Positions 1,461 through 34,091 are shown, counted from the stretch's first letter. The stretch: DNA of 64,000 nt from a virus (IMGVR_UViG_3300021256_000058:117823-181822); one strand, 5' to 3'. Numbers and translations: made by a program. Notes: generated by a model not told the origin, from the letters alone.

Positions 1461-1590
1461 CCTTTTGGTATTATATTAAAATAAAAAATAAAAAATATAA
1501 GCGAGCGAGCGAAGCTCGCGAGAAAGGAGACCCACTCCGTGTCACTTTAGGTATGGTTGCCCTTGGATGGCAATCTAAATAACTAGGGGA

Positions 1591-2799
1591 TTGCCTCTTG
1601 CTCGGCAACGGCCGGGGGGGGTATCCGTTTCAAATGATGGAAAGATTGGCTAGTGTTATTATTTTGATGGCTCTGGATATTTATAGTTTGATAGTACAAT
1701 AACTAATGTCATTAGTTCTCTTAATGAAATTACTTTTAGTTTTTGGGCAAAACCTACAACTACTACAGGTATTTAGGGTATTTTTCTTATTCGCCAAGGT
1801 GCTTCCTCTCATTAGATAAACTTTACTAATACTGGTATTGTATATAGAGATGCGGCTCACTCATCTCAGACTACTATTGCTTACCCTGCGGCAGTACAAG
1901 ATATATGGACTCATTATCTTTTTAGTTATGCTCATGGTAATTGGATTGTTTATATAAATGCAGCTCTTATTACAAATTAGGGATATACTGGTACAACTCA
2001 TTTAAATGCTAATCTTAATGAAGTAAGAATAGGACGTGCGCAATCATCTTCAGGCAATATTTATTATACTGGATATATAAATGATTTTCGTATTTATAAC
2101 CATGCATTAGCTGCTGAAGAAGTCCGTTCAATAGTTGCTAATGGTTTAATGATTCATTATCCTCTTAATGGTATGCCAGGAGATAGTGACAATATTGAAT
2201 ACGATATTTCGGGTTATCATAATGATGCGGAAATTGTAGGTATTGGCAAACAAGGATTTATTAGTTCATTAGCTGCACCTAGATATGCACAATCTTATGC
2301 CGGGTTTAGTTTAACTAAATACATAAAAAATGCTGATGTAGCATATGACAGTGGAATATGGTCAATATCTTGTTGGGCTCGTAGTGCTGTGCAACCAAGT
2401 GCTTATGAATCTATTTTTTGTTTAGCGAAAGCTGATGGTGAAGATGCTAATAAAAAAGCTTGTATATGTTATTCACCAACAGCTAATACAATATGGTATG
2501 AACTTGAAAATAAGTCCGGTAATATAGCTGGTATATCATATACAAAATGGTATCATTTTGTAATGACTTGTGATGGGTCTACTGGTAAAGTTTATATTGA
2601 TAATGAATTAAAAGCTACTCAAACAGGAATTACAGTTAGAACAGGATGCCATAATTTAGGTATAGGCTGTAGAAGTGAAAATGACGCATTTACTACTGGC
2701 GTTAGACCATTTACTGCTGGCAATCTTTCCGATTTTAGATTTTATACAAAATGTTTAACGGCTGATGAAGTCAGCCAACTTTATAATATGGGTGTTTAA
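1591..2799 (+). CDS. tandem LamG/ConA-like jelly-roll domain protein; TAG read as sense
   Basis: One frame runs from the TAA at 1576 to the TAA at 2797-2799. Its only internal stops are TAG, for example at 1651, 1684 and 1774. It contains two LamG_3-type C-terminal signatures, FRIYNHALAAEEVRSI and FRFYTKCLTADEVSQLYNMGV. The start is uncertain; the TTG at 1591 has poor SD spacing. Confidence 0.5.
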
Positions 2800-2846: not shown

Positions 2847-5309
2847 TTGAGTTTACAAATTTGGTTACCATTAAATGGGGATGCTCGTAATATTGGTATT
2901 AACGGGACGGTTCCTACAGCTTAGAATATTACTTATGAAAATAATGGTAAAATTGGGAAAACTGCTTATTTTAATGGTTCTGATAGTGGTATATTAATCC
3001 CAGGTTATTCATTGCCTTCTGGCTCTAGTGATTGGTCATTTGCTGCTTGGGTAAAACCTACCGATGCTATGAGTGGAGCCGCATGTTTTTTAATGAGTTG
3101 TCGTACTGCATCATCTAATGCAGGATATGCTATATTTCTTTATCCTCCTAGTAGAGTGACCATATATAATGGCGGTGGTGGAGGAGATTATTCAGAAACA
3201 GATATTATAGAATTAAATAAATGGCATCATGTTGCTTATAGTATTACTGGAGCAATAATAAAATTATATATAGATGGAATTTTAAAGTATACTGCTAACA
3301 GTGGTAATAATCATATACCAAATACTTATGGTATTGCAATTGGCGGAGCGCAAAATAGTGGAGGGAATGCTAATATTACAAATTAGCGATTTAAAGGTTA
3401 TATGCAAGATGTACGCATTTATAATAATGCGCTTTCAGAAATTGAAATTCAAGAATTAGCAAAAGGATTAATTTTACATTATCCTATGTCTGGAACACCA
3501 TATAGTAATTTAAATAGTATAAGAACTAATTAGTTACCTTCTGACTATCAAGAAGTTGAATACGTAGAAAATGATAAAGATGGTTTAGCTTATATTAATT
3601 TAGGTTTAAGTTTTCCTGATCCATATAATGGTGAGATTAAAATGATTGGGACCGTAGCTTGTTCTAATTTAACAGGAGCACGATAGTTATTTGCTGGTTT
3701 CGGACCAGGAAATAAAGGTAATTATTTAGAATTTTATTCTAATAATAAAATAGGTGTATTTAATGCTTACAGTGGCCCAGCATGTATAGAAAATCATCCT
3801 TATCATTTTGAGTTTGGTTTAAATGCTAGTAGAACTTATGTTAAAGCCAATGGGGTTACTAATACTAGTACTGGTGCTTAGAGTGGCTCATATTTTAATA
3901 GCGGTTATATGTTTACTTTTGCTGGAAGTACTGGCTAGGCAAAAAATATTCGTTTTTATCATACTATTGTATATGATAGTGACATAAAAGTAAGAGATCT
4001 ATACCCTTGTTATCGTATATCTGATAATAAAGTAGGATTTTATGATATTGTAAGTAACACTTTCTTTTAGAATGCTAATACTTCTAGTACGCCAGGTGAA
4101 TTAACTTGTGGCCCATTGGTAAAAAAAATACCTGATACTTATTTGCCATTAGAATATATTTAGAGTGATGGTTAGCAATATATTGATACTGGTTATATTC
4201 CAAATACTAATTCAGAAGTAAGAACTACATTAATGCATTTAAGTAATACTTCAAGTGCTAATTTTTTGTATGGTTCTAGAACTGGTAGTAGTGTTGGTGA
4301 ATTTTATTTCTTTATTTATCCTTAGTTAAATAGTGTCCATTATGGTTATTCAAATAGTGGTAATCGAAGTATTGGTACAATACCAAAATTAAAAGATAAT
4401 GTATTTACTATTTATCATAATAAAGGTTTTGTTATCGTTAATATGAATAATATTAAAGTTACTACAAATGTAACTAATGGAGCATTCACGGGTACTCGTC
4501 CTATGTTTTTATTCGCGATATAGAGTGGTACTACATGGGATGGCCAAAGAGGGCCAGAAAGGATTTATAATTTTGAAATTTTAGAATCTGGTATCCCAAG
4601 AAGAGATTTCCGCCCTTCTTTACGGAAATCTGATTCTGTTCCAGGCATGTATGATTTAGTAAATGATGTATTTTATATTAAAGGTGCTAATTCTACAGGT
4701 GAATTTACTTATGGGTATATTGCAAATGGAGCTAAAGAATGGGACATTTCTGGCCATGGCTACAATTTAACTGCGAATCAAGATTTATCATTATTTATAA
4801 AAGATAATTCTAAGCGTTATAATTATAATTATTTAACTGCTTCTGGGAAATATTTTACTACACCAACAATAGGTAGCGCATGGAGGACTGTATCTTTTTG
4901 GTTTTATCCAGTAATAGCCCCAGCAACTATGCAAGTATTATGGGCAGATTACGAATCTCATGCTGCTTGTGGTTTTTATCCTAATAGCAATACTTTATTA
5001 GTTTCAAGAGATAATTATAAACTTGTTTTTACAATTAATAATATTAGTACAACTAATTGGAATCATATTGTATTAATATATAATGAAAATAAAGAACCGA
5101 TTAAAGCTTATTGTAATAATATAGCTTTAACTGGAACTGCAAGTGGAAGTGGTAATTATTGGAGACATAATGCTCAAATTTTGGAAATTAATGGACGTGA
5201 AAATACTGGAGAAAGTAGTTTAGCTTATTAGATTTCTGATTTTAGAGTATATGCAATAGAATTATCTGATATTGAAATAGAAAAATTATATAATATGAAA
5301 AAAGCATAA
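2847..5309 (+). CDS. LamG-like receptor-binding/fibre protein of about 820 aa with at least 11 in-frame TAG
   Basis: A TTG start follows the RBS ggagaggagga. The N-terminus reads SLQIWLPLNGDARN, and the LamG signatures are VRIYNNALSEIEIQEL and FRVYAIELSDIEIEKLYNM. The whole 2.46 kb frame is interrupted only by TAG and ends in TAA at 5307-5309. Confidence 0.6.
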
Positions 5310-5388: not shown

Positions 5389-7806
5389 ATGTCTTTATAG
5401 GTTTGGTTGCCTCTTAATGGAAATGCTAATAATTATGGGCTTATTAAAGGTTCTATTACAAATAATGGGGTTACTTTTTCTGGAGCTGGGAAAATAGGAG
5501 TAAATAGTGTATTTGCAAATAATAAAAATGTTGTAATTACTGGAATTAATATTACTAAAAATGAATGGACAGTTGCTATTTGGGCAAAACATAATAACGC
5601 TACTGCGACAGATCCTAATATGCTGTTTTCTTGTGGCACTAATGGTAATTATACGCATACTCAATTTGCTTTACATTTATAGTCAGACAGTAAACATTAT
5701 TATGGTGTTGTTAATACTAATGCTTATGCTTCTTTTATTCCCATAGACAATATTGCAGAATGGCATCATATTGTAATGAGTTATGATGGACAAACTCTTA
5801 AAGCTTATTTAAATGGTTAGCTAGTAAATACTATTAATGAAAATTTAACACTATTCCAAGGAAATAAAATCAGTATAGGATCTTATTATGCAAATAGTAC
5901 ATCTACTAATTGGCATGGCGGGCTATAGGATTTCCGTGTGTATGACCATGTTCTTACAGATTCTGAAATTTGGCATTTAGCTAACCCAGAAGTATATCAT
6001 TATCATATGAATGATATTAATAATGGTTATAAAAATTATATTTATAAAAAATTACCTGATGAGTACTAGGAAGTTAAATATATTGAATCAACTGGTACAT
6101 AGTATATTAATACTAATTATACAAATGATACAGCAACATCTATTAGAATGAAATATAGATTTTCTGCAACTGAAGTAGGCGCTAATAAAGTAATTGTTGG
6201 CTCTGAAACATCAGGGCATCAATATACTGGAGCATTAGTGCTTAATGGTAATTTATATAGTGGTACATCTATAAGTTATTTTAACACTGGTACATTAACA
6301 GTCAATACTGATTATATATATGATTATTATAGTAGTAATTCTGAAGCATATGTATATAAAAATGGAGTAAAATTTACTAAAACAAGTAATTTAGGGGTTA
6401 ATTGTACTTATGCACCTTGTATTTTTGCTCATAATGCTGGTGGCACAATTAATTAGTATTCTAAATGTAAATTATATTCTTTTTAGTTATATGTTAATAA
6501 TGTTTTATAGCGTAATATGCGTCCTTGCTATCGCAAATCTGATAATAAGCCTGGTATGTATGATTTAACTAATGGGGTATTCTATACTAATGCTGGTTCT
6601 GGAGAATTTATATATGGGCCTATTATAAAAGCTTTGCCAAAAGAATATGTGCCAGTTGAATATTTATAGAGTACTGGTACACAATACTTAGATATGAATA
6701 TGAAGCGTAATTCTGTTAATTTCAGAATTATTGTAGAACAAGAATTTCCAACTTCAACTGGAGAAAGAGATGTAGCTGGTTCATATTCTTCTGGAGCTGC
6801 AGCTGGGGCATTAGTATGCGGTTAGGCCTATGATCCAGCTAAATTATTTATATATAATAAAAGTTACACAAATGCTTAGATAGCTCAACCTATTTTTATG
6901 CAAAATGTGAAACAATAGGTTGAATATGGCACAACAGCTTCATAGCATTATATCCAAATTGGAACGACTAAAGACTTCAAGGCAACTACTAATTTGCCCG
7001 CATCAGATACTAATAATCTTTTTATATTCGCAGGAGGGCCTTCTAATTATTCCAATGCAATAAATGTAAAGATCTATTCATTAGATATAATAGAAGATAA
7101 TATTTTAAAAAGAGCATTACGTCCTTGTTTACGTATTTCTGATAAAAAACCTGGTATGTATGATCTTGCAAATGATATATTTTATATTAATCAAGGTTCT
7201 GGTGAATTCGTATATGGTTCTTAGAATGAATTAATAAAAAATAATAATGCATGGGGACAAAACTATCAAGGGATCTTAAATATAAAAACAGTATAGAATA
7301 ATAATACTCCGCGGTATAGCTCAAGTACCTTTATTGGCACCCCAGCTCGCAATCCGATGCTCACTTTTGGAGAAAGTAGTACTACTAAAAATGCATTAAC
7401 AGATTGTACTGTCAGTTTTTGGATAAAGAAAAAAGCTAATGAAGAAAATATGGTTTTAGGGTCTGGTCCTTATATAGGGGCTATTTCTGGGTCTAAGTTT
7501 TATACTTAGAATGCTGGCACTACTATACAATTATATAAAGATGGAATAGAATATCCTATAACTTCTACTGAATCTAATAACGTACTTTATTTTAACGGTG
7601 CGGCTACGCCAGACACTAATTGGCATCATTTTTGTTTAACTCATGTTAATTTTTCAGCATGGAGTTCAATTATCATGAATAATTATGGTTCTGGCTCAAC
7701 ATGGGATACAAATTCTGATATTTCAGATTTTCGTATTTTTGCAACGGTTCTAACCGCAGATGACATTCAAAAGCTCTATGCTATGGGTCATCCGCCAACA
7801 ACATAA
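5389..7806 (+). CDS. LamG-like receptor-binding/fibre protein, paralog of 2847..5309, with about 16 in-frame TAG
   Basis: An ATG follows the RBS gagaggtgg. The N-terminus is M S L TAG V W L P L N G, parallel to SLQIWLPLNG in the paralog. LamG signatures are FRVYDHVLTDSEIWHL and FRIFATVLTADDIQKLYAMG. The frame is broken only by TAG and ends in TAA at 7804-7806. Confidence 0.6.
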
Positions 7807-7993: not shown

Positions 7994-10900
7994 TTGGCAC
8001 TCTTCAAAATAAGTCAAGGTAATAGTAGCAACCTCCCTACAAATTATCATAATGGATATTGTTACTTTACTATTGATGAAGGTAAGTTATATATCGACTT
8101 TCCTGGCACAGGAGAAGATCAATAGGTAGTAGATGGCGAAACTTTAATACGCCGTCCATTGAATGCGAACCGTGCGGACTTCGTTGGATACGCTCTTACG
8201 CTCGAGTTTGATGGCGATGCACAGCCTAACTATAATGGTTCTACTCCTCGAACCTATAATATTACTCCAGAAGCAATTAGTGCGGTCCGCCGTAACGGAG
8301 ATACTATTCCAGGTCCATTAACTCTTAATGGCGTGTTCACAGTGAATAATGACGCATACATTGACAGTGCAACTGTAGGCGATTTACTTATCAATGGCGG
8401 GACACGTTTCATCGGAGACGTGAATGCAGGTAAGATTACCGCGTCTAGCTTTGTCGGTCCTCTTACCGGGAACGCCACAAGCGCAGATAAAGTAAACCAT
8501 TATATATCAATTCAAATTAATGGTACAGAAAAAGCTCATTATGATGGTTCGGCTAACCAATCGGTTAACCTGACCGCCGAATCCCTTGGTTTACTTGGAA
8601 ACACTACTAAGTATGCTCTTGGCGATGCAGTAGGCGGTAATGCGGTAGCCGCAAATAAATTAACTGTCAATGCAGGTTCTTTAACTCGTCCAGTTTACTT
8701 CTCTGCTGGTGTACCAGTAGCAATAAGTAATACTGATGAAATTGACTTAATTGCTAAACAAGCAAATAGTGTAAAGGAAAATCTTATTATAGAAGCCAGA
8801 GACACTGAGTTATGGCGTTATAATGGTAGTATTTCCCGCACACTAAATCTTACTCCAAGTTTAATTGGAGCTTTCGATATTATAGAAGGTTCTACTGTCC
8901 AAGGCGAATCTATTTTTAATAATGTAGTTTACTTAAATGATGAAACATATGCTGACTCAATGACTATTGAGAATGCAATCGTCACAGGCGCGCTTCGTGT
9001 AGTTGGTGACTTAAATGGTTCTGTTATTAATGCAACTACATTTAATGGAAATTTGAACGGAAATGCAACATCAGCCAACAAAGTAAATCATTGGTTGAAA
9101 ATCCAATTCGATGGTACAGATAAAGCTCAATATGATGGATCGGGAGATAACAAAACTGTTAATATCACCCCAGCTGCTATTGGAGCTTTGTCTACTACAA
9201 CCAAATATGCTGCTTCCGCATCTGTTGGTGGCTCAGCTCTTAGTGCGGAAAAGCTTAATGCTAATGCTGGCGATGCTACGCACCCAATATATTTCGCAAA
9301 TGGTGTCCCGGTTCAAGTCTCTGGAACCTAGGCTATTAACGTTTCATCTGCGGATAAAGTAAATCATTCTTTGCGAGTTGATTTAGACGGTACCACCGCA
9401 GTCACTTATGATGGTGATACTGAAAATAAAAGTGTAGATATTACCCCAGAAGCAATCAATGCTCTCCGCAATACTACGAAATATGCCGGGTCTAACTCGG
9501 TCGGTGGAGCAGCGATTAGCGCAAATAAATTAAATACAAATGCGGGCGATGCTACACATCCAGTTTACTTTGCTAATGGTGTTCCGGTCCAGGTTTCTGG
9601 TACTTAGGCAATTAATGTAGCAAGTGCTGATAAATTAAATCATTATGTAAGTATTTCAGCCGATGGAACTGAAAAAATCCATTTTGATGGATAGAATAAT
9701 GATTCATTTGATATAACCCCAGAAATAATCAATGCAGTAAGACGTAATGGTGATACGATCCCAGGTCCTCTTACTTTGAACGGGGTATTCACTGTAAATA
9801 ATGATGCTTACATTGATAGTGCTACCATCGGTGACCTCTTGGTTAATGGCGGCACTAGATTCGTGGACGATGTGAATGCAGGAAAAATTACTGCAAACAA
9901 TTTTGTTGGCCCATTAACAGGTAATGCTACAAGTGCGGATAAGGTAAATCATTACGTATCTATTCAAATCAACGGAACTGAAAAGGTTCATTATGATGGT
10001 TCCGCGAATCAGTCAGTGAATTTAACTCCTGAGTCTCTTGGTTTGTTAGGTGCTACAACAAAATATGCACTTGGTGATGCTGTTGGTGGCAATGCGGTCA
10101 AGGCTAACGCGCTGAACGTGTCAGCGGCAATTGGTTCTACGACCCGCCCCGTATACATCCCATCATCTGGCGTTCCCGCAGTAATCAGCAATACCGCTGA
10201 AATTGATTTAATCGCTAAGAAGGCTAATAGCCTTAAAGAGAGTTATATCTATTCATTACGTGGCACTGAACAGTGGCGTTATGATGGTTCTACTCAGCGC
10301 ACTTTGGATATTACTCCAAATGACATGGGTATCTTCGATACACTCGAAGGATCTACTGTTCAAGGCGAATCTGTTTTCAATAACGTCGTATATTTGAACG
10401 ATGAAACTTATGCAGATTCAATGACTATTGAAAATGCTATTGTAACAGGGGCCCTACGTGTTGTAGGCGATCTTAATGGTAGCGTAATTAATGCGACTAC
10501 TTTTAACGGTAGTTTGAATGGCAATGCGACTAGTGCAAATAAAGTTAATCAAACTCTTACTATTGAATTAAATGGTACAGCGCAGCCATCATATGATGGT
10601 AGTATTGCCAGACGTATTGAAATTACTCCTGCTTCAATCGGCGCTTTGGCAAGTACCGCAAACTATGCAGGTAGCTCTTCAACAGGAGGACCTGCAACAA
10701 GCGCCCAAAAGCTGAACACTAATGCAGGTTCAGATATTTTGCCTGTCTACTTTACTGGCGGTGTACCCGCAGCAGTAAGTACATCAAAACAAATAAACAT
10801 TCTTGCTCGTGAGGCAAGTAAAACAACTTATAATTTAGCCATCGCTTTTGATGGCACTAATGCTGTCACTTTTGATGGTAGCACTCAAAATAAATCAATT

Positions 10901-13900
10901 GACATCACTCCAGAAGGTATTAATGCAGTTCGTAGAAACGGAGATACTATCCCCGGTCCATTAACCTTAAATGGAGTCTTTACTGTCAATAATGACGCAT
11001 ATATAGATTCTGCAACAGTGGGCGATCTCTTAGTCAATGGAGGCACTCGCTTTGTTGGGGATGTTAATGCTGGCAAGATAACAGCCAGTAGTTTCATTGG
11101 TCCTCTGACCGGTAACGCGACTTCCGCAGATAAAGTTAACCACTATGTGTCTATCCAAGTAAATGGTACTGAAAAAGTTCATTTTGATGGATCTGCTAAT
11201 TAGTCAGTCAATTTAACTCCAGATCTGCTTGGATTGTTAGGCAGCAATACCAAGTATGCTCTTGGCGATGCAGTAGGAGGAAACGCCGTTAAGGCAAATG
11301 CTCTTAATCTTTCTGCTGCTGTTGGTTCTGAGACTCGACCAGTTTACTTTAAAGCCGATGGTAAGCCTTATACTGTAACTAATAGTAATGAAGTAGATAT
11401 TATTGCTAGAAAAGCAAATAGTTTAAAAGCTAATTTTATTTATGCACTTCGTGGTACTGACCTATGGACATATGATGGATCAGAGCAGCAAAGACTTGAT
11501 ATCACACCAAATGATATGGGAATCTTTGATACTCTCTTAGGTTCAACTGTACAAGGTGAGTCAGTATTTAACAATGTTGTCTATCTTAACGATGAAACAT
11601 ATGCCGATAGTATGACTATTGAAAATGCCATTGTTACTGGAGCATTAAGAGTCGTTGGAGATTTAAACGGTTCAGTTATTAATGCTACAACATTCAATGG
11701 TAATTTAAATGGTAATGCAACAAGTGCGAACAAGGTAAATAAAGTATTAACTATTGAGTTAAATGGTACCGCGCAACCGACCTATGATGGTAGTATAGCA
11801 AGAACAATTACTATTTCTCCTTCTACTATTGGGGCTTTAGCAAGTAATGCGCATTATGCAGGCAGTTCTTCAACAGGAGGATCTGCAACAAGTGCAGAAA
11901 AGTTAAATACTAATGCGGGTTCAGATATTTTACCTGTTTATTTTGCTAACGGCGTACCTGCTGCAGTCAGTACATCAAAGTAGGTTAATATTCTTGCTCG
12001 TCAAGCTGATAAAACCACTTATAATTTAAAGATTGATTTAGACGGTACTAATGTAGTTACTTTTGATGGTTCTACAGAAAATAAATCTATTGATATTACA
12101 CCAGAAGCAATCAACGCAGTTAGAAGAAATGGTGACACAATTCCAGGCCCTCTGACACTTAATGGTGTATTTACAGTAAACAATGACGCTTATATAGATA
12201 GTGCAACAATTGGTGATTTGCTTGTAAATGGCGGAACCAGATTTGTTGGAGATGTAAATGCGGGTAAGATCACAGCTTCCTCATTTGTTGGTCCACTCAC
12301 TGGGAATGCTGCAACAGCTGATAAAGTAAATCATACCCTTGCAATTGAATTTAATGGTACTAATCAGTGTAGTTTTACTGGCGCAGCAAATGCCACTGTA
12401 AATATTACACCTACTGCAATTCATGCGGTTGATGACCGTGGAGATACCATGACTGGTACTCTTTAGATCGATAATGTCAATGGTATTAAAATCAATTCAC
12501 ATGATACGGATTTAAAAATTTGGGAAGTTGTTGGTGATTCTGGTTCTTGGAATAGTAAATTTGGTTTTTATGATTTATATAGAGGCTCTCAGTCAGGCAA
12601 TAATAATACTCTTGAACTTTATGCAGATAATCAATCTGGTACTCATGTAAAAGTTCGTACTATTACTCAAGATGGTAAAATTACTTGGCATACTGATTAG
12701 ACATTTGCCAATACTATTATTGGTAATATACAAAGCGCGAATAAAGTTAATAATAAATTAAAATTTGATTTAAGAGGTACTAATGTTTGGGAATATGATG
12801 GTAGTGCTCCTTAGACACTCGATCTTACTCCTAATGACATGGGTATCTTTGATACATTATTAGGCAGTACAGTTCAAGGTGAATCTGTATTTAATAATGT
12901 AGTTTATTTAAATGATGAAACCTATGCAGACTCTATGACAATCGAAAATGCGATCGTAACAGGCGCATTGAGAGTAGTCGGAGATCTAAATGGTAGTGTA
13001 ATAAATGCTACAACCTTTAATGGTGCATTAAATGGTAATGCTACTACCGCAAATAAAGTAAATCATGCGTTGAACTTAGAATTTGATGGTGATGCATTAG
13101 ATCCATTTGATGGTAGCGCAGTTAGAACATTTAATATTACTCCTGAAGCAATTAATGCGGTCCGCCGTAATGGTGACACTATACCTGGGCCACTTACGCT
13201 CAATGGAGTAATGACAATTAATAATGATGCCTATATTGATTCTGCTACTATTGGTGATTTATTAGTTAATGGTGGTACAAGATTTGTAGGCGACGTAAAT
13301 GCTGGCAAGATTACTGCATCTTCGTTTGTAGGTCCGTTGACCGGAAATGCGACGAGCGCAGATAAAGTCAACCATAGTCTTGCAATTGAGTTTAATGGAA
13401 GTAATCAAACCACTTTTGACGGTTCTGGATCTAATAAGACCGTTAATATTACTCCCACCGCGATCGCAGCTGCACCAAAAGTAAATGGTGTATATTATGG
13501 TACTTGTGATACTGCTGCAACAACTCAAGCAAAAGTAGTTACTTTAGTAAATGGTACTGGTTTTGATCTGGTAAATGGCGCAATGGTAGCAGTTAAGTTT
13601 ACTAATGCTTCTGCTAGCGCTACTATGACCTTACAAGTTGGATCAACTGCGGCGAAAAATTTGTACCAATATGGCACAACAACAATGTCTAGCAGCTAGC
13701 ATTAGAATGGATGGCCAGCTGGAGCATTAGTATTATTTGTTTATGATGCTACTGCAAATAGTAATGCTGGCGGATGGTTCCGTACTTTTTGGGATAATTA
13801 CAGTTATGCTGTTAACTCAGTATATGTTACTACTGCCGCAGGTACAGCGGCTAAAGTAAGTTCAAATAGTTCTGGCTATGTATTAAGACCTGGTAATATA

Positions 13901-22288: not shown

Positions 22289-22628
22289 TGTTTATGCAAA
22301 TCTCGTCAGAGAGTTTGATATTTTTAAAATTTGACAGATCAATTGTCAAGGGAGCTTCCGAACTAATAGAAGTAGTAACGTTATTATGATCGTCTGTCTT
22401 ATGAGTGTAAGTAATACTGTCATTAGATGCATTTGTAATATTTATTGGATTACCAGTAGTAGTATTGGCAGTATAGTACCATGGATAACTTGGAGAAGTC
22501 CAGGTCCAACTCTACTTGCGGCCATCCGCATATCCTGCTTCATAAACTTCATCAAGAAGTTTTTCAAGCTCTTCTTTTGTGAATACGATCTGTCCCTTAC
22601 TATTAGGATAGAACACTTTTACTTTCAT
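22275..22628 (-). CDS. hypothetical protein with 1 in-frame TAG, missed by the ORF track
   Basis: Its ATG overlaps the permease stop as TAATG. The 354-nt frame contains a single TAG and no TAA or TGA, which is notable in AT-rich DNA. Confidence 0.35.
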
Positions 22629-23878
22629 TATTCACTTTTCTCCTTTAACACTAAATTGAGGATAACTCCAACAATCAGACCGAGCGCAGTTGCTGAGAAT
22701 GAAAGTGTAGTTCCTCCAACTGCAAGACCACTAATACCAAGAGAAAGAACAGTAGAGACAATGATTAAATTCTTCTGGATATTAAGGTCAATCTTCTGTA
22801 ACATCTTAATACCTGAGCAAGCGATAAAACCATAAAGGATTATTGCAGCTCCTGCAAATACGCAGCTTGGTATGCTTGCAATAAAAGCTTGTACTGGGGC
22901 AAGGAATCCAAGTAGGACTAGGAATAGCGCTGCTCCCAATGTGACTTTAGTCGACGCAACTCGCGAAAATCCAACACAAGCAACGCCTTCTCCATAGGAA
23001 CAAATTCCGAGAGAACCTACGGAAGTACCGACTACGTTTGCAAGTCCTTCACCGATAAAGAGGCGTCCAAGTCCAGGCTTTTTGTAAAGATCTACACCAA
23101 CAATTCCTCCAAGTGCGGCATGGTCGCTTAAACATTCCATCATTGCGGAAATAGTATATGCAATGTACATTACTATGATGGGCACAAGAGTTGTAAACTC
23201 TACAGCAGCCCAATGAGTAAATGCGAAGTCTGGTACGGAAATGAATTTTAAATTGGCAAATACACTAAAGTCAATCAGCGGGTAAATTCCGCACACAGTC
23301 AAGATGACCGCATATACATAACCAATCAGAGTGCCCAAAAGGAATGGTAGAATTCGAGCAATACCTTTAGCATAATGTGAGATAATAGCGATAGCAAACA
23401 TTGTGATTAGTGCTGCGCTAACGCCCCACATATTTGTAATACCATTTACTTGAACATAAGTAAGAATAAAAGGCATCAGATTTACGCCAATCACAACAGT
23501 GACCGCACCAATAAGAGCATGAGGGAAGATTTTATATATCTTCTCTACTGGTACTTTTGTAAAAATAATACCAAATAAGCAATATACTAAACAAGTTACC
23601 AAACCACCGATTGCAACTGCGGTATAGCCTCCTGCGGCCAAGGCTGCCATTACTGGCGCTACAAAAGCACCAGAACTGGACACAAACATCGGAGACTTAA
23701 ATCCTGTGACAATTAAGTACAGAATTGTAGAAAGCCCTGCCCCAACCAGTGCTCCAGAGACCGCAACACCGCAGATATTTGCAATCAAAACTGTTGCAAC
23801 GAAAACTGAAAGTACAAGTTGAATTGAGAAGACTATCAGTTTATTAAACGGCAATTTGTCTTCAATATTATAAATCAT
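22628..23878 (-). CDS. NCS2-family nucleobase:cation symporter (uracil/xanthine permease-like)
   Basis: It has about 12 predicted TM helices. The C-terminal half, ...GFSRVASTKVT..IPSCVFAGAAIILYGFIACSGIKML, fits the UraA/PyrP signature. It is free of TAG. Confidence 0.75.
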   Translation of the reverse strand: MIYNIEDKLPFNKLIVFSIQLVLSVFVATVLIANICGVAVSGALVGAGLSTILYLIVTGFKSPMFVSSSGAFVAPVMAALAAGGYTAVAIGGLVTCLVYCLFGIIFTKVPVEKIYKIFPHALIGAVTVVIGVNLMPFILTYVQVNGITNMWGVSAALITMFAIAIISHYAKGIARILPFLLGTLIGYVYAVILTVCGIYPLIDFSVFANLKFISVPDFAFTHWAAVEFTTLVPIIVMYIAYTISAMMECLSDHAALGGIVGVDLYKKPGLGRLFIGEGLANVVGTSVGSLGICSYGEGVACVGFSRVASTKVTLGAALFLVLLGFLAPVQAFIASIPSCVFAGAAIILYGFIACSGIKMLQKIDLNIQKNLIIVSTVLSLGISGLAVGGTTLSFSATALGLIVGVILNLVLKEKSE

Positions 23879-24138
23879 TCTTCTACTACTTCTCTTTCTT
23901 TATCTTCAATAATTTCATTTAGGAATGTCCTTAGACTTTTTAGCATATCGACAGGCATATCCCTAAATATTTCGACGCCTTTGGGAAGCATTAGAGGGAC
24001 ATGGCCTGGGAATGCTTTGCAATAAACGTCATACATATGCTTAGCTGTTTCAATATCATACAGCTCGCTATCATAGTAAAGGAGATCAACTATCATATTT
24101 TCCATATACTCTCTCCAGCTCCGCAATAGCTTCATCAA
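23875..24138 (-). CDS. hypothetical protein
   Basis: An intact 87-aa ORF ending in TGA. Confidence 0.45.
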   Translation of the reverse strand: MMKLLRSWREYMENMIVDLLYYDSELYDIETAKHMYDVYCKAFPGHVPLMLPKGVEIFRDMPVDMLKSLRTFLNEIIEDKEREVVEE

Positions 24139-24604
24139 TATTGCTGACTAATACGCCAGCCTGCTTGATAAGACCAGTTACATAGAGATTCTGGTATGAA
24201 TACTGTTGTTCGCCCAATGAAGCAGCTCCGCCAGCATCTTTGGCTTCACTATGAGTAATATAGCACTGACGAGTATCAGTACAAATACCAATAATGTACT
24301 TATTATCTCCGCGTGAGATCTTTTCATGGAACTTACCGATCTCAGCGCATGTTCCAGAAGGCAATACATCACCATCAATGCAAGCAATAAGAACATCTGT
24401 ATTATCAAGCCGAACATTGTCTCCATTGGCAATTTCCTGGCTTCCCGCAAATTTCTTCTTACCCTCGACACCATTTATATCTGTATTCTCAACTGGGGAG
24501 TATACATAGGCATCAGGAAACTTTTCTCTAATCTTAGTGGCCCATTCAATATTGCGGAGATAGTCTCCATAAAAGAAAATCGGACCAGCGAGGTATATTT
24601 TCAT
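24086..24604 (-). CDS. nucleoside 2-deoxyribosyltransferase / Rcl-like (PF05014-type)
   Basis: The N-terminal MKIYLAGPIFF signature is followed by an Asp/Glu-rich core. It ends in TGA. Confidence 0.7.
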   Translation of the reverse strand: MKIYLAGPIFFYGDYLRNIEWATKIREKFPDAYVYSPVENTDINGVEGKKKFAGSQEIANGDNVRLDNTDVLIACIDGDVLPSGTCAEIGKFHEKISRGDNKYIIGICTDTRQCYITHSEAKDAGGAASLGEQQYSYQNLYVTGLIKQAGVLVSNIDEAIAELERVYGKYDS

Positions 24605-24628
24605 ACTCCTTTTTCTCCTTTTTATTTA

Positions 24629-25240
24629 TTATCCAACAGCTTCGATCAAATCATCACGCGGAATATCAGCAATTACATCATAAGCTGCAATAATCTGCTC
24701 ATTATGACGGAAGCCAATCACAAGATGCTGAAGGAACATCTCTGTTTTAATTTCCTTTACAAACGCTTGATCGAGCATACCTTTTATAATTTCATTATAA
24801 GAAAGGCCAGTTTTAGCGAACTCTTTAACTTCTTCATCAGTCAGATTCTGGAAAATTAATACTGTGAAAGTATCAATATCAGTTTCAACTACTAATCCTT
24901 CAGCTTCAAGTTCTTTAATAAATTTTGCACCTTTGTTAGCAAATGCTTGACGCTTATCTGCTTCAGTGAAATCTTCAATGATAATAACAGCAGAAGTTGG
25001 ATCTGGCTTGATATTATCAATTATCGGATCTACTGAAGGACTTGCGCTCGGCTGTACTGTCGGTGTAGGACTGGCACTTGGCTCTGGGCTAACAGATGGA
25101 GCCGGAGAAGGAATCACAGCTTCCAGAGTAGGAGTTGGTGACACAACTGGCTAAACAGGGCTTCTATGGCCGGCAACCGCAGTCACAATAACCGCAATAA
25201 CCAAAAGTATAATAACTAGCCATTTATAATCAAATTTCAT
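24629..25240 (-). CDS. exported or membrane-anchored protein with a Pro/Ser/Thr-rich linker and 1 in-frame TAG
   Basis: The true N-terminus, MKFDYKWLVIILLVIAVIVTAVAGHRSPV-TAG-PVVSPTPT..., lies upstream of the track ORF 24629..25144. It ends in TAA. Confidence 0.45.
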
Positions 25241-25541
25241 TTTTCATATCCTCCCAATAAGCAACAGATTTTCCTGCTGCTTGAGCATATTCTATCTCGC
25301 TTTTGGTTGATGAACCAATATATCTTGTTTCATCTGTTATTACAACAACCGTATCAGCGAGATCAATTTTTTGTTTATGAAGCGCATCAAGTCTTTCCTT
25401 ATCTTCTGCGCTCATGTCAACATGATCTGTGTGATGGAAAACATGCGGCATTAGGATAATAGCTCCCTGCATTGTAAGTTTTTCTGCGGCCTCCATAAAC
25501 AGATCTTTGTAACGGGTACTCCCGCACAAGCAAACTATCAT
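25230..25541 (-). CDS. hypothetical protein
   Basis: An intact 103-aa ORF ending in TGA. Confidence 0.5.
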   Translation of the reverse strand: MIVCLCGSTRYKDLFMEAAEKLTMQGAIILMPHVFHHTDHVDMSAEDKERLDALHKQKIDLADTVVVITDETRYIGSSTKSEIEYAQAAGKSVAYWEDMKNEI

Positions 25542-26020
25542 TTTTGCTCCTTTAAATTAATAACTCTCTGATTAGTAGATCCACGCATCCAAAGGCTAAT
25601 ATCTCTCTGCTCTTGGATAAATGGCCCATCAATCAGTACATCTATCGTAGCTAAAATATCTTTTAAGCGAGGGCTACTATGATTTTGAAGCTCTTCATAC
25701 GTAAACCCTGTCCAAAGATAAATTTTTATATCTGGGTATTCTTCTCTTACCGCAGTTGCAACCATATAAGTAAGAAAAAGATTTTCTTCTGCTAATGGTT
25801 CTCCTCCCATAATGCAGAAATCTCTTTGAATACCATTGGCCTTTATACCATTAATAATTTCATTAATTGTATCTACTGTAAAAGTTTTTCCGCCGTCAAA
25901 GTCCCAAGTCTCTGGATTATGACATCCTGGGCAATGTCTGTGACATCCTTGGACGAAGAATGTCAAACAGACCCCAGGAGCTGCAGCAACATCGTTATAG
26001 ATTATGCCAGCGTATTTCAT
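25538..26020 (-). CDS. nrdG: anaerobic ribonucleotide reductase activating protein (radical SAM)
   Basis: Contains the Cys cluster FVQGCHRHCPGCHNPETW. Its ATG overlaps the nrdD TGA. Confidence 0.85.
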   Translation of the reverse strand: MKYAGIIYNDVAAAPGVCLTFFVQGCHRHCPGCHNPETWDFDGGKTFTVDTINEIINGIKANGIQRDFCIMGGEPLAEENLFLTYMVATAVREEYPDIKIYLWTGFTYEELQNHSSPRLKDILATIDVLIDGPFIQEQRDISLWMRGSTNQRVINLKEQK

Positions 26021-28293
26021 CGCATAATCCCCGTATGCTTGGTTCTTTCTTCAACTTCAGCTTGCTTTCCTTTATTAAAAGCAGTCTTATAGTTGCCTGT
26101 CAAATAACCAGTTACACGGCGGAGTTGCTGGATATTTTCACTACCACAAACTGGGCAATGGTCATTAAATTCACCAGTATAGCCGCAGTCAAGGCAGGTA
26201 TCATTTGGGACATTGATTGCAAAATATGGAATATCATGTTCCATAGCATAATTGACAATTTCTTCAACAGCATCAATATTGTTCAATACTGCACCATCAA
26301 GCTCCACATAAGTAATGCAACCACCATTAGAATAGCCAGTAAGCTGACTTTCAATGTCGATCTTCTCAAATGGAGACACTTCTTTCCATACAGGAACGTG
26401 CATTGAATTAGTGAAATACTCATGGTCAGAAACATTTTCAATTACACCATATTGCTCTTTAAACTTCTTCATAGCAGTATAGCAAAGATTCTCAGCAGGC
26501 GTATAATATACACCAAAGTTCAAACTATATTTCTTTTTGAATTCTGCGCAACGAGTATTAAACAATTGTTCAATATGTTTTGCAAGATTCATACCTTTAA
26601 CAGTAGTATGATCACATCCAATCAATAGCTGAAGAGCTTCGGCAAGGCCAAGTTGACCAATTACTAAAGTGCCGTGCTTAAGCGCGGAACGGATTCCCTC
26701 TTCAGGAATATAACCAGCCATTGTGCCATTTTCATACATGAATTTTGCACTTTCAGGGCTCTGGCTGCAAATCCATTCAAAACGCTCAATTAACATATCT
26801 CTTGCTTCTGCGATCTTCTGGTCAAGATATTTAAGGAAATGATCTTCAAGATTTGGATCACTAATACCATATTCATCAACTATTTGTTTTGCAAGAGTTG
26901 GAAGAATAATAGTAACAGGGCAAATATTACCACGACCATCTTTCTTAAAGCCCATACCATTAATATCGAAACCATTATAAGTTCTACAGCCCATCGTGCT
27001 TACATACTGTGTAGGATCATTTTTATCATATCCCGCATTTACTGACCAATCAACATTAGCGTAATTAGGATACAATCTCTTTGCGGTGCTTTCCAAAGCC
27101 ATGCGATAAAGATCATAGTTAGGAGTACCAGGTTTATCATTAACGCCTTTCATATACTGGAAAATACCACAAGGGAAAATAGAAGTTTTATGCAATTTAC
27201 CAAGTCCTTCAATAGAAACACTAAGGAGAGCCTTAGTTACCATTCTACCTTCTGGAAGCGTGCAAGTACCATAATTAATTGAAGTAAAAGGCAACTGATT
27301 GCCGCTACGGGATTGCAGAGTATTCAGATTATGATACATACCTTCTGCTGCCTGATGGACTTCTTTTTCAGTCATATCATAGGCATAACGATAAATATCT
27401 GCATCTTCTTTAAAATAATCATCTTCAATACCAAATTGCAAGCGTTTTGCATACCCAACTACTTCATTGATATTATGATCGTCAAGATTACCAATGTACT
27501 TGCATCCATCTGCATAATGTTTGTAGAATGATTTGCGGACATAGGGCACCATTGTCCAATCCAGATGAGTTGCACTTACTCCACCAAACTGCTGTAAACT
27601 TTGAAGCTGAAATAAAACTGCAACAAGCTGAAATGCAGTATTCACAGAACCGGCTGGCCGCACATCTGTCTGGCGAGTATTAAACCCATTAGCGAGCAAA
27701 TCATCTAATGGAAGACTTAGGCAATTATGGTCACCAACTGCATAATGATCTAAGTCATGAATGTAAATCATATTACCTTCATGGTTTGCTCTTGCCATGT
27801 CTGATACCAAATAATCAAGAGCATATTGTTTAGTCATATAACTTGTAGCTTCACCCATACGACCGCCAAATGAGTGTTCATCAATGTTAGCGTTCTGGTT
27901 CTGTACATTTCTTGCTTCGAGCTTCTCTCGAATTGGACGAATGAAATCGTCTTGTACATTACGAGCTACTTCTTTTTTATATCTATATCTAATATATGCG
28001 CGAGCCACATCACGGCGCTCTGAGCGCATCAAATAATCCTCAACCCAGTCTTGGATTAACTCTACTGGGATGGGAGCAACACTACCAATGACTTTTTTGC
28101 CAATTTCAAGCGCAATATCTGTTGCTGTATCGTTTTCATAAAGTTTTCCATCAACTTCAATGAAAGCCTTATTAATAGCATTAATAATTTTCTGCGCATC
28201 GAAGTTGACAGTTGAGCCATCACGCTTCAATACATGCATATAAATAAAACCTCCAAACCAAAATATTGTGTTAATTTTCGCGGACATCCACAA
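26017..28293 (-). CDS. nrdD: class III anaerobic ribonucleoside-triphosphate reductase
   Basis: 758 aa with an N-terminal ATP-cone (VLKRDGSTVNFDAQKI), a C-terminal Zn Cys cluster (CLDCGY...CPVCGS) and a glycyl-radical tail RVTGYL. Contains no TAG. Confidence 0.9.
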   Translation of the reverse strand: MWMSAKINTIFWFGGFIYMHVLKRDGSTVNFDAQKIINAINKAFIEVDGKLYENDTATDIALEIGKKVIGSVAPIPVELIQDWVEDYLMRSERRDVARAYIRYRYKKEVARNVQDDFIRPIREKLEARNVQNQNANIDEHSFGGRMGEATSYMTKQYALDYLVSDMARANHEGNMIYIHDLDHYAVGDHNCLSLPLDDLLANGFNTRQTDVRPAGSVNTAFQLVAVLFQLQSLQQFGGVSATHLDWTMVPYVRKSFYKHYADGCKYIGNLDDHNINEVVGYAKRLQFGIEDDYFKEDADIYRYAYDMTEKEVHQAAEGMYHNLNTLQSRSGNQLPFTSINYGTCTLPEGRMVTKALLSVSIEGLGKLHKTSIFPCGIFQYMKGVNDKPGTPNYDLYRMALESTAKRLYPNYANVDWSVNAGYDKNDPTQYVSTMGCRTYNGFDINGMGFKKDGRGNICPVTIILPTLAKQIVDEYGISDPNLEDHFLKYLDQKIAEARDMLIERFEWICSQSPESAKFMYENGTMAGYIPEEGIRSALKHGTLVIGQLGLAEALQLLIGCDHTTVKGMNLAKHIEQLFNTRCAEFKKKYSLNFGVYYTPAENLCYTAMKKFKEQYGVIENVSDHEYFTNSMHVPVWKEVSPFEKIDIESQLTGYSNGGCITYVELDGAVLNNIDAVEEIVNYAMEHDIPYFAINVPNDTCLDCGYTGEFNDHCPVCGSENIQQLRRVTGYLTGNYKTAFNKGKQAEVEERTKHTGIMR

Positions 28294-28311
28294 TATAATG
28301 ATTTTTGCAAT

Positions 28312-32737: not shown

Positions 32738-32767
32738 AACTTCGTCCTTTCATAGTTTTCATATTAT

Positions 32768-32796
32768 ATTATAACATATTTTTTTCTAAAAAGCAA
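32768..32796 (-). promoter_or_regulatory. sigma70/sigmaA-type promoter TTGCTT-N17-TATAAT on the - strand
   Basis: Seen on the + strand as attata...aagcaa with an exact 17-nt spacer. It lies upstream of the polymerase start. Confidence 0.6.
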
Positions 32797-32797
32797 G

Positions 32798-34033: not shown

Positions 34034-34062
34034 TCCTCATATTTCATTTTCTTATTTATTAT

Positions 34063-34091
34063 ATTATATCATATTATTTATTAAAAGTCAA
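34063..34091 (-). promoter_or_regulatory. sigma70-type promoter TTGACT-N17-TATAAT
   Basis: + strand attata 34063-68 and agtcaa 34086-91, with a 17-nt spacer. It lies upstream of the helicase start at 34033. Confidence 0.65.

What the first reader, a model, noticed from the sequence alone, without database searches (positions are those of the whole stretch)
8540..11215. Paralogous repeat copies and conserved motifs point to glutamine as the amino acid decoded at TAG
Several independent comparisons inside the window converge on Gln. (a) Fibre repeat copy 1 encodes DGSAN-Q-SVNLT with CAA at about 8557, and copy 2 uses CAG near 10009. The copy at 11195-11203 encodes DGSAN-TAG-SVNLT. (b) The LamG protein at 2847 begins TTG AGT TTA CAA ATT TGG, giving SLQIW. 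Its paralog at 5389 begins ATG TCT TTA TAG GTT TGG. (c) In the endolysin PG_binding_1 domain, the TAG at about 53694-96 sits exactly where the family has its conserved FQ: AAVIKF-TAG-TEHSLDPDG. (d) In the GIY-YIG domain a TAG sits in ERWK-TAG-H, where I-TevI-type enzymes have a basic or Gln residue.
Basis: seen in the sequence. Interest (0 to 1): 0.8.

Follow-up and report, generated by a model that had tools for sequence, protein, structure and literature searches.

The report
Phage reads TAG as glutamine

Summary
The interpretation, TAG = Gln, is strongly supported.

- **Codons in relatives.** At five of six TAG sites in RuvC and both TAG sites in PhoH, related phage genes carry almost only CAA, CAG or TAG.
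- **Profile test.** The test decoded all 61 sense codons correctly. It assigns TAG to Gln by 38 log units over Glu.
- TAG-rich genes have lost CAG. Counting TAG with CAG restores the CAG:CAA ratio seen in TAG-poor genes.
- **Solved homologues.** They have Gln at the endolysin FQ site (5 of 5) and at the PhoH GD..Q.D site.
- **tRNA.** An assembly identical to the source contig over 10,885 bp carries 33 tRNAs about 14.4 kb beyond the window. One has anticodon CUA, and its nearest relatives are the phage's own two tRNA-Gln.

TAG is concentrated in structural, lysis and a few other genes. It is nearly absent from replication genes and never needed as a terminator. This is the published code-15 pattern, here in a distant relative of SPbeta-like, Enterococcus and Phass-1 phages: a new member of a known kind.

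In passing: next to the suppressor lies a second tRNA gene split by a conserved tRNA-Ala-like insert.

The parts
7994..15484 (+). Giant tail-fibre gene with five repeat units and 18 in-frame TAG codons. They start at 8123, 9329, 9605, 9692, 11201, 11981, 12464, 12698, 12812, 13697, 13703, 14096, 14261, 14291, 14612, 14714, 14894 and 15221.
   Evidence: In frame there are 0 TAA and 0 TGA, with 18 TAG. The TTG start follows GGAG. Repeat alignment: TAG 11201 faces CAA 8558 and CAG 10010; TAG 11981 faces CAA 10790. Strain L002 (94.5% identical) differs at 133 synonymous and 54 non-synonymous codons, with TAG facing CAG once, CAA once and TCG once.
2847..5309 (+). LamG-domain receptor-binding-type protein with 12 in-frame TAG codons. 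It begins SLQIW, with CAA at 2856.
   Evidence: Translation. Laminin_G_3 on the database gene call. Stop counts.
5389..7806 (+). Paralogous LamG protein with 17 in-frame TAG codons. It begins MSL-TAG-VW, with the TAG at 5398-5400.
   Evidence: At this column related loci carry CAA three times and TAG twice.
1579..2799 (+). Third LamG-type ORF. It has 5 TAG codons in its first 134 codons. The database call begins only at the ATG at 2149.
15557..18883 (+). Large structural protein with internal repeats and 14 in-frame TAG codons.
   Evidence: All 14 TAGs are conserved in the independent assembly L010.
20355..20858 (-). RuvC-like resolvase with 6 in-frame TAG codons. Five of them sit on the family's conserved Gln columns.
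   Evidence: Pfam RuvC. Codon tables over 61 distinct related genes. Five of the family's six columns with at least 80% Gln are TAG in this gene.
42661..43653 (-). Protein with a membrane anchor, a coiled coil and a GIY-YIG nuclease domain, carrying 11 in-frame TAG codons. The ERWK-TAG-H codon is at 42850-42852.
   Evidence: Pfam GIY-YIG. I-TevI has R30 at this position. Relatives carry CAA 5, CAG 10, TAG 4, GAA 6 and GGA 1.
52551..53861 (-). Endolysin (PG_binding_1, CHAP, SH3) with 2 in-frame TAG codons. The one at 53694-53696 sits on the FQ motif.
   Evidence: Five of five solved homologues have Gln at this position.
53913..55166 (-). PIN-PhoH ATPase with 2 in-frame TAG codons.
   Evidence: Relatives carry CAA or CAG in 43/43 and 42/43 cases. 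PDB 3B85 has Gln at the GD..Q.D site.
21788..52135 (-). Replication and nucleotide-metabolism block: NrdD/NrdG, guanylate kinase, Pol III alpha, helicases, primase, DnaB, Sak4-like protein, NAD ligase, gyrase A/B and RNase H. It is essentially free of TAG. The GIY-YIG gene listed above is embedded in it.
   Evidence: The 37 TAG-poor ORFs window-wide hold 7 TAG in 11,566 codons (0.6 per 1000). The eight TAG-rich genes have 12.9 per 1000. Pol III alpha and NrdD have 0.
19212..19646 (+). Holin with no TAG.
   Evidence: PHROG holin, E = 4e-33. Codon counts.

Best explanation
The window is part of a roughly 180-kb tailed phage from the sheep rumen that uses a code-15-type genetic code: TAG is read as glutamine, and TAA and TGA remain stops.

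Shown:
- TAG is translated through in at least nine genes.
- The residue expected at those positions is Gln.
- TAG has taken the place of CAG in those genes.
- No gene in the window needs TAG as a terminator.
- The same genome carries an array of 33 tRNA genes with one tRNA(CUA). It is closest to the phage's own tRNA-Gln(CUG) and tRNA-Gln(UUG) and differs from tRNA-Gln(CUG) in the anticodon loop only at position 36.

Inferred:
- A host enzyme charges the tRNA(CUA) with Gln. This could be GlnRS, or GluRS followed by GatCAB.
- The charged tRNA competes with host release factor 1.
- Replication genes carry no TAG, so they can be made at once. Fibre, LamG, endolysin, RuvC and PhoH proteins can be completed only once the suppressor is abundant. 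This would tie late and lytic functions to phage tRNA expression.
For: **Read-through**
- 0 TAA/TGA against 18 TAG in the 7.5-kb fibre frame, with the same pattern in five other genes.
- Purifying selection continues across the TAGs: 133 synonymous against 54 non-synonymous differences to strain L002.

**Gln identity**
- RuvC codon tables.
- PhoH, 43/43 and 42/43 CAA or CAG.
- GIY-YIG site.
- PG_binding_1 FQ, 5/5.
- PhoH 3B85.
- Paralog and repeat comparisons.
- Profile test: 61/61 control codons decoded correctly; Gln +13.7, Glu -24.4, Trp last.
- 9 of 21 TAG sites lie in Gln-majority columns. The comparison figures are CAA 38/129, CAG 45/88, GAA 13/417 and TAT 2/310.

- TAG-rich genes: CAG 22, CAA 109, TAG 80. 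TAG-poor genes: CAG 168, CAA 184, TAG 7.
- CAG:CAA differs between the two sets at p = 1.8e-10.
- (CAG+TAG):CAA does not differ (p = 0.93).
- Counting TAG as Gln brings Gln codons per 1000 from 21.2 to 34.1, against 31.0 in TAG-poor genes.

**Terminators**
- 34 TAA and 11 TGA; none of the 45 ORFs needs TAG as its stop.

**tRNA**
- Assembly L138 is 100.000% identical to the source contig over 10,885 bp. It carries tRNA(CUA) 14.4 kb beyond the window.
- The 33-tRNA array is in L145.
- Rfam tRNA score 48 bits, with G73 and CCA.
- Nearest own tRNAs: Gln-CUG 69.7% and Gln-UUG 67.1%, then Met 58%.

**Literature**
- The same pattern, and Gln by mass spectrometry in crAss-like phages: 10.1101/2021.08.26.457843, PMC9523058, PMC10607447.
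Against: - No protein-level data exist for this phage.
- The Gln signal comes mainly from RuvC, PhoH and two GIY-YIG sites. Without RuvC and PhoH, the 13 remaining sites are poorly conserved and cannot separate Gln (-9.0) from Glu (-5.1).
- Four TAGs sit at columns conserved for another residue: Glu 19/19 at fibre residue 2411, Ile 21/21 and Gly 17/21 in the GIY-YIG domain, and Tyr 12/19 in the 55463-56035 ORF.
- One strain-level TAG faces TCG, Ser.
- The tRNA(CUA) was read in identical or near-identical assemblies, not in the window itself.
- Its acceptor end is unusual: a U1-U72 mismatch and a bulged A in the T stem.
- Its identity rests on similarity only. Against annotated phage tRNAs, the related suppressors of locus L063 matched tRNA-Trp as well as tRNA-Gln.
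- The timing model is untested. The holin has no TAG.
Confidence: 0.93

Rival explanations
1. TAG is read as an amino acid other than Gln: Glu (a Gln-type tRNA charged by a non-discriminating GluRS and never amidated), Trp (through the Trp-like CUA-type tRNA), Tyr, Lys or pyrrolysine.
For: - Glu is second best in the profile test and slightly ahead of Gln once RuvC and PhoH are removed.
- One RuvC column and the GIY-YIG site also accept GAA in relatives.
- A second, Trp-like CUA-type tRNA family exists in this phage group.
- ARAGORN labels CUA tRNAs as 'Pyl'.
Against: - Four RuvC columns and both PhoH columns are Gln with no Glu at all in 42 to 61 relatives.
- Overall, Gln beats Glu by 38 log units, and Trp is the worst of the 20 amino acids.
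- TAG replaces CAG specifically.
- The intact tRNA(CUA) is closest to tRNA-Gln.
- The Trp-like tRNA gene is interrupted in this phage.
- Lys scores -36.5.
- No pyl genes appeared among the ORFs I scanned or the precomputed Pfam labels for the flanking roughly 40 kb. About half of the genome was not read.
Confidence: 0.04
2. TAG is a genuine stop. The TAG-rich genes would then be pseudogenes, split genes or assembly artefacts.
For: Under the standard code these genes break into many short ORFs. No tRNA or Rfam family was found inside the window.
Against: - TAA and TGA are absent from frames of up to 7.5 kb that carry 18 TAG.
- Domains and repeats continue across the TAGs.
- Synonymous change dominates across them.
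- The TAGs are conserved in independent assemblies.
- TAG sits on invariant Gln columns.
- A suppressor tRNA is present in the genome.
Confidence: 0.01
3. TAG has two meanings. It acts as a stop early in infection, or in some contexts, and as Gln later, so that a share of products is deliberately truncated.
For: - One TAG-poor gene (39162-39857, - strand) ends ...GAT GAG TAG TAA.
- The host presumably keeps release factor 1.
- The published regulatory model implies termination at TAG before the suppressor accumulates (10.1101/2021.08.26.457843).
Against: No ORF in the window requires TAG as its terminator. Only this single tandem case exists. Nothing points to a context signal around the TAGs, though I did not test for one in depth.
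Confidence: 0.3

Closest known systems
Genetic code 15 (TAG read as Gln) in gut phages: crAss-like, Lak, and the Garnet, Amethyst, Agate and Topaz clades (Borges et al., 10.1101/2021.08.26.457843; Peters et al., PMC9523058)
   Same: - In-frame TAG aligns with Gln.
- The phage encodes a tRNA(CUA).
- TAG is concentrated in structural and lysis genes and absent from replication genes.
- The host presumably uses the standard code.
   Different: - The lineage is different: by Pol III alpha it is nearest to phages of Firmicutes, not to Crassvirales or Lak.
- No release factor 2 was seen in the roughly 100 kb examined.
- There are no proteomic data.
Phage Phass-1 and the proposed Phassvirus group (Babkin et al. 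2023, PMC10607447; OQ749652)
   Same: - A large siphovirus-like genome with 36 tRNAs, including tRNA-Sup-CTA.
- TAG in 41 ORFs, placed at conserved Gln positions.
- It is among the top tblastn hits for Pol III alpha.
   Different: - Pol III alpha is only 38.8% identical, and there is no nucleotide-level match in INPHARED.
- The source is rumen rather than human gut.
- The genome is about 180 kb against 136 kb.
- There is one intact suppressor rather than three.
E. coli amber suppressors supE (tRNA-Gln CUA) and su7 (tRNA-Trp CUA, which inserts Gln); stated from textbook knowledge
   Same: A single anticodon change turns a tRNA-Gln (G36 to A) or a tRNA-Trp (C35 to U) into a reader of UAG. This phage group has one tRNA of each type.
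   Different: Here the suppressor is a fixed, phage-encoded part of the coding system, not a host mutation. The Trp-like copy is interrupted in this phage.
'Enigmatic' tRNA introns of Lak megaphages, one of which may itself encode a tRNA (Devoto et al. 2019, PMC6784885)
   Same: A tRNA gene in a TAG-recoded phage carries a conserved tRNA-sized insert in its anticodon loop.
   Different: - The host tRNA is a Trp-like CUA-type tRNA next to the suppressor, rather than tRNA-Thr.
- The insert has alanine acceptor features (G3-U70, A73, CCA) and a non-canonical T loop.
- The phage lineage and habitat are different.

Membership tests
Code-15-type (TAG read as Gln) recoded phage | In-frame TAG inside conserved genes, with long ORFs restored when TAG is read through | tested here: met
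   Six genes have 6-18 in-frame TAG and 0 TAA/TGA. Domains continue across the TAGs.
Code-15-type (TAG read as Gln) recoded phage | TAG positions align with Gln in homologues that use ordinary Gln codons | tested here: met
   Codon tables for RuvC, PhoH and GIY-YIG. PDB homologues. Profile test with 61/61 controls correct and Gln best by 38 log units.
Code-15-type (TAG read as Gln) recoded phage | Phage-encoded suppressor tRNA with anticodon CUA | tested here: met
   None lies in the window. One lies 14.4 kb beyond it, in an assembly 100% identical to the source contig over 10,885 bp. It is closest to the phage's own tRNA-Gln genes.
Code-15-type (TAG read as Gln) recoded phage | TAG enriched in late (structural, lysis) genes and avoided in early (replication) genes | tested here: met
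   12.9 against 0.6 TAG per 1000 codons. Exceptions: the holin has none, and PhoH, RuvC and a GIY-YIG gene are also recoded.
Code-15-type (TAG read as Gln) recoded phage | TAG not used as a terminator | tested here: met
   The 45 ORFs end in TAA (34) or TGA (11). One has TAG directly before TAA.
Code-15-type (TAG read as Gln) recoded phage | Gln found at TAG positions in peptides | not testable with these tools
   This needs mass spectrometry. It has been done for crAss-like phages (PMC9523058), not for this lineage.
Code-15-type (TAG read as Gln) recoded phage | Phage-encoded release factor 2 (present in only some members) | tested here: not met
   No RF2 match appeared among the ORFs I scanned or the precomputed Pfam labels for the flanks. 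Most window ORFs were judged by eye only, and about 80 kb of the genome was not examined. This is not a defining feature.
Crassvirales | Close similarity to crAss-like phage genomes | tested here: not met
   The best Pol III alpha matches are Enterococcus phages, Phass-1 and SPbeta-like Bacillus phages at about 39%. No megablast match in INPHARED. Marker-gene phylogeny was not done.
Pyrrolysine decoding of TAG | pylT-type tRNA with pylS and pylBCD, and Lys-like positions at TAG | tested here: not met
   The CUA tRNA resembles tRNA-Gln. Lys scores -36.5. No pyl genes were seen in the regions examined.
PG_binding_1 domain (endolysin N-terminus) | Pfam match above threshold with the conserved FQ motif | tested here: met
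   46.8 bits against a cut-off of 23, covering profile positions 3-57 of 57. The TAG aligns with the Q of FQ in 5/5 solved structures.
GIY-YIG nuclease domain | Pfam match above threshold, with GIY, YVG and the catalytic Arg | tested here: met
   40.4 bits against a cut-off of 22.6. Aligned with I-TevI residues 2-91. The R of ERW aligns with the position mutated to Ala in structure 1LN0; I take this to be I-TevI R27 from memory. The TAG aligns with the Arg three residues later, R30 in I-TevI numbering from memory.

The most novel reading that the evidence does not exclude
TAG decoding in this phage group may involve a second, gated suppressor.

Directly after the Gln-like tRNA(CUA) lies a Trp-like tRNA gene whose anticodon loop reads CUCU|...|AAAA. 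A conserved 77-78-nt element interrupts it. That element folds like a tRNA and has an alanine-type acceptor end (G3-U70, A73, CCA).

If tRNA-processing enzymes release the inner element, they would leave a nicked outer tRNA. RNase P would cut at its 5' end and 3' maturation would act at its CCA. The phage's own RNA ligase, kinase and phosphatases could then seal the nick. That would be a protein-assisted way to splice a tRNA in a bacterial virus, and a possible timer for the code switch.

Five sequences (four of them distinct) show compensatory changes in every helix of both the outer and the inner fold. Lak megaphages offer only an unexplained precedent (PMC6784885).
Probability: 0.12. Interest if true: 0.75.

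Novelty: new member of a known kind. Interest (0 to 1): 0.3.

Why it matters
**Annotation.** This contig and its relatives must be annotated with translation table 15. Under the standard code the fibre, LamG receptor-binding proteins, endolysin, RuvC and PhoH fall apart into fragments.

A warning follows for anyone repeating this analysis. Large protein collections already translate such contigs with TAG = Q. Protein-level alignments are therefore circular evidence for Gln, and the codons have to be read in DNA.

**Biology.** The result extends TAG-to-Gln recoding to a rumen phage lineage only distantly related to SPbeta-like, Enterococcus and Phass-1 phages. It gives a very clean picture of how recoding proceeds. 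TAG replaces CAG specifically, leaves CAA alone, and does so only in one set of genes.

The principle itself is not new.

Tried and rejected
- **Self-BLASTP of the paralogs.** All-against-all BLASTP of the five structural proteins gave mostly low-identity pairings, in which TAG faces many different residues. Only contexts of at least 75% identity are informative.
- **Protein-level homologue search for RuvC.** It showed Gln at the TAG columns. I rejected it as circular once L009 showed that the database translates TAG as Q, and replaced it with DNA-level codon tables.
- **Total ORF length under recoding.** It does not discriminate: TGA recoding gives a similar total. I used in-frame stop counts instead.
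- **tRNA and Rfam scans.** The window, the flanks L001 and L006, and about 130 related loci gave nothing apart from L063. I reached the suppressor only by walking along the contig through cluster members.
- **BLAST of the L063 suppressors against annotated phage tRNAs.** The result was ambiguous between Trp and Gln.
- **Endolysin relatives in IMG/VR.** There were too few, three loci, to build a codon table.
- **Structural genes.** They are too divergent for cross-phage codon tables.
- **The tRNA insert.** No ribozyme or other Rfam family matched it. There was only a weak alpha_tmRNA hit, E = 0.049. Its minimum-energy fold is no better than shuffled sequence. The loose pattern scans of IMG/VR and of the metagenomes returned mostly tmRNA 3' ends or chance matches.
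- **A theta (HDV-like) ribozyme next to the suppressor.** None was found.

Full report
**What the window is**

The 64-kb window matches ENA metagenome scaffold SHIW14-1_SAMN02144230-S004_METAG-scaffold_114 (172,581 bp), at about positions 89,966-153,965. I read the sample name as the Shi et al. sheep-rumen series; that is my inference. Other assemblies of the same phage reach about 180.5 kb.

The left 19.6 kb of the window encodes structural and lysis genes on the + strand:
- three LamG-domain proteins;
- a 2,496-codon fibre;
- a 1,108-codon repeat protein;
- a holin.

The rest encodes mainly replication and nucleotide-metabolism genes on the - strand. I recognised most of these by eye from the translations, and they were not scanned against family libraries. 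They include the following:
- Pol III alpha, anaerobic ribonucleotide reductase, gyrase A/B and NAD ligase;
- DnaB, primase, a Sak4-like protein, dUTPase and RuvC;
- PhoH, an endolysin and RNA-repair enzymes.

No nucleotide-level relative exists among deposited phages. By Pol III alpha the nearest are Enterococcus phages, Phass-1 and SPbeta-like Bacillus phages, at about 39% identity.

**Checking the observation**

All four cited sites are real.
- The fibre column DGSAN-x-SVNLT reads CAA (8558), CAG (10010) and TAG (11201) in the three closely related repeat units. It reads GCC and AAG in the two divergent ones.
- The LamG paralogs begin SLQIW (CAA) and MSL-TAG-VW.
- The endolysin TAG at 53694-53696 lies in a PG_binding_1 match, and the GIY-YIG TAG at 42850-42852 lies in a GIY-YIG match.

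Chance is excluded. The fibre frame has 0 TAA, 0 TGA and 18 TAG, while the other two frames have 118 and 285 TAA+TGA. Five more genes show the same pattern.

Against a strain that is 94.5% identical, the fibre differs at 133 synonymous and 54 non-synonymous codons. The frame is therefore under selection across the TAGs. Independent assemblies share the same TAGs.

**A trap**

The large protein database returned RuvC homologues with Gln at the TAG columns. One such protein, checked against its own DNA, had TAG where the database shows Q. Protein-level agreement is therefore circular, and I read codons in DNA from then on.

**Which amino acid**

In 61 distinct RuvC genes from IMG/VR, about 30 have no in-frame TAG. 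The window's TAG columns carry these codons:

| RuvC residue | CAA | CAG | TAG | other |
|---|---|---|---|---|
| 8 | 35 | 10 | 16 | none |
| 65 | 45 | 4 | 12 | none |
| 116 | 38 | 15 | 7 | TAT 1 |
| 121 | 49 | 3 | 8 | GCT 1 |
| 134 | 45 | 2 | 5 | GAA 7, TCT 2 |

The sixth site (residue 68) is variable.

- Both PhoH sites face CAA or CAG in 43/43 and 42/43 relatives. The ERWK-x-H site faces CAA 5, CAG 10, TAG 4, GAA 6 and GGA 1.
- Solved structures, which carry no annotation bias, have Gln at the FQ site in 5/5 PG_binding_1 homologues. PhoH 3B85 has Gln at the GD..Q.D site.

I then ran a Codetta-style test, using column profiles built from relatives and summed over all sites of a codon.
- It decodes all 61 sense codons correctly.
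- For TAG (21 sites) it gives Gln +13.7, Glu -24.4 and Trp last.
- Nine of the 21 TAG sites lie in Gln-majority columns. That resembles CAA (38/129) and CAG (45/88), and is unlike GAA (13/417) or TAT (2/310).

This line of evidence comes from the window alone.

| Gene set | CAG | CAA | TAG |
|---|---|---|---|
| 8 TAG-rich genes | 22 | 109 | 80 |
| 37 TAG-poor genes | 168 | 184 | 7 |

The CAG:CAA ratio differs between the two sets (p = 1.8e-10). The (CAG+TAG):CAA ratio does not (p = 0.93). TAG has replaced CAG, one C-to-T change away, and has left CAA alone.

**Limits**

- Without RuvC and PhoH the remaining 13 sites are weakly conserved and cannot separate Gln from Glu.
- Four TAGs sit at columns conserved for Glu, Ile, Gly or Tyr.
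- One strain-level TAG faces TCG.

CAA and CAG codons also often sit in columns where Gln is not the majority residue (71% and 49%). I therefore read these cases as ordinary substitutions, but they remain exceptions.

**The decoding machinery**

The window and 18 kb of flanks contain no tRNA and no Rfam family. I walked outward through cluster members.

Assembly L138 is 100.000% identical to the source contig over 10,885 bp. It carries a tRNA with anticodon CUA 14.4 kb beyond the right end of the window, on the strand of the replication genes. The full array in L145 has 33 tRNAs covering all 20 amino acids, and exactly one has anticodon CUA.

Features of this tRNA:
- Rfam scores it 48 bits as a complete tRNA with G73 and CCA. 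It has a U1-U72 mismatch and a bulged A in the T stem.
- Among the phage's own 32 sense tRNAs, the nearest are Gln-CUG (69.7%) and Gln-UUG (67.1%), then Met (58%).
- Its anticodon loop is CUCUAAC, against CUCUGAC in Gln-CUG.

Who charges it, and how it competes with release factor 1, is inferred rather than shown.

**How it most likely works**

None of the 45 ORFs needs TAG as its terminator; they end in TAA (34) or TGA (11). TAG density is 12.9 per 1000 codons in fibre, LamG, the repeat protein, RuvC, GIY-YIG, endolysin and PhoH. It is 0.6 per 1000 elsewhere.

This matches the published model, in which TAG-free early genes are translated at once and TAG-containing late and lytic genes need the phage suppressor (10.1101/2021.08.26.457843). 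The timing is not tested here, and the holin carries no TAG.

**Comparison with what is known**

- TAG-to-Gln recoding with a phage tRNA(CUA) is established for crAss-like, Lak and several other gut phage clades (10.1101/2021.08.26.457843).
- It has been verified by mass spectrometry in crAss-like phages (PMC9523058).
- It has been described in Phass-1, a distant relative of this phage (PMC10607447).

This window is a new member of that kind. It meets every defining feature that sequence can test.

**Seen in passing**

Directly after the suppressor lies a second tRNA gene (L145 13375-13526) interrupted in its anticodon loop by 77-78 nt.

The joined exons resemble an intact CUA tRNA of a relative (L063, 75%) and the phage's own tRNA-Trp (66.7%).

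The insert has these features:
- an acceptor stem GGGGCG/CGCUCC with G3-U70, A73 and CCA;
- a D-like hairpin;
- a T-like arm with loop GGCGGUA.

Four further copies, three of them distinct, turned up in rumen- or gut-type contigs. Over the five sequences, 93.5% of cells pair and 13 pairs change on both sides. None of 500 shuffles reaches that, and slid controls pair at 38-47%.

Lak megaphages were reported to have 'enigmatic' tRNA introns, one of which may itself encode a tRNA (PMC6784885). What this element does is unknown.

**Verdict**

The biology is already known in kind, so interest is modest. The interrupted tRNA is the one thing here that deserves a separate look.

Noticed in passing
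Outside the window, about 14.3 kb beyond its right end: L145 13375-13526 (ENA ERZ28613016 scaffold_46). The sequence is identical in L152.: A Trp-like tRNA gene lies directly after the Gln-like tRNA(CUA). A conserved 77-78-nt tRNA-Ala-like element (G3-U70, A73, CCA) interrupts its anticodon loop. Five sequences (four distinct) show compensatory changes in every helix of both the outer and the inner fold. No Rfam family other than tRNA matches it. Lak megaphages are the only precedent found.
   Followed up: partly
Outside the window: L145 722-15154: An array of 33 tRNA genes covers all 20 amino acids, interspersed with small ORFs, on the same strand as the replication genes. It includes tRNA-Gln(UUG), tRNA-Gln(CUG) and one tRNA(CUA).
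   Followed up: yes
window 56294-63163, - strand: A set of RNA healing and sealing enzymes: RNA ligase (59609-60856), a P-loop kinase (56979-57485) and two metallophosphatases (56294-56971, 62333-63163). NADAR and Band_7 proteins lie alongside. The set would suit repair of cleaved tRNAs.
   Followed up: no
window 1579-7806, compared with L002, L003, L149, L150 and L148: The LamG gene cassette differs in gene number and length between otherwise near-identical strains: 216+738+805 aa, 751+826 aa or 752+846 aa. A more distant relative (L148, whose flanking 65-aa protein is identical) has a reverse transcriptase gene (RVT_1) beside its LamG genes, which suggests a diversity-generating retroelement.
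   Followed up: no
L006 2179-8016 (1.1-7.0 kb beyond the right end of the window): A cluster of a radical SAM protein, a glycosyltransferase and a YcaO protein, preceded by a 269-aa low-complexity Ser/Gly/Asn-rich protein. It resembles a peptide-modification cassette carried by the phage.
   Followed up: no
window 42661-43653, - strand: The GIY-YIG nuclease domain is fused to an N-terminal membrane helix and a long coiled coil. The gene has the highest TAG density in the window (11 in 330 codons) although it sits inside the TAG-free replication block. Two of its TAGs fall on columns conserved as Ile and Gly in relatives.
   Followed up: partly
window 39162-39175, - strand: A TAG-poor gene ends ...GAT GAG TAG TAA and overlaps the DnaB start. 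This is the only place where TAG could serve as a terminator, with TAA as a back-up.
   Followed up: partly
window 46380-47282, - strand: A protein made of GGTG(V/A)T-type repeats, with a weak tail-fibre match and one TAG, sits among the replication genes between the ligase and gyrase A.
   Followed up: no
Database proteins P0001-P0078, compared with L009 360-842: The large protein collection translates contigs of this phage group with TAG = Q. Its sequences therefore cannot serve as independent evidence for the identity of the recoded residue.
   Followed up: yes
L063 1230-1379 and L288 (IMG/VR relatives): Some relatives carry two adjacent intact CUA tRNAs. In L063 one is Gln-like and one Trp-like; the L288 pair was not typed. 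TAG may therefore be read by two different tRNA bodies in parts of this phage group.
   Followed up: partly
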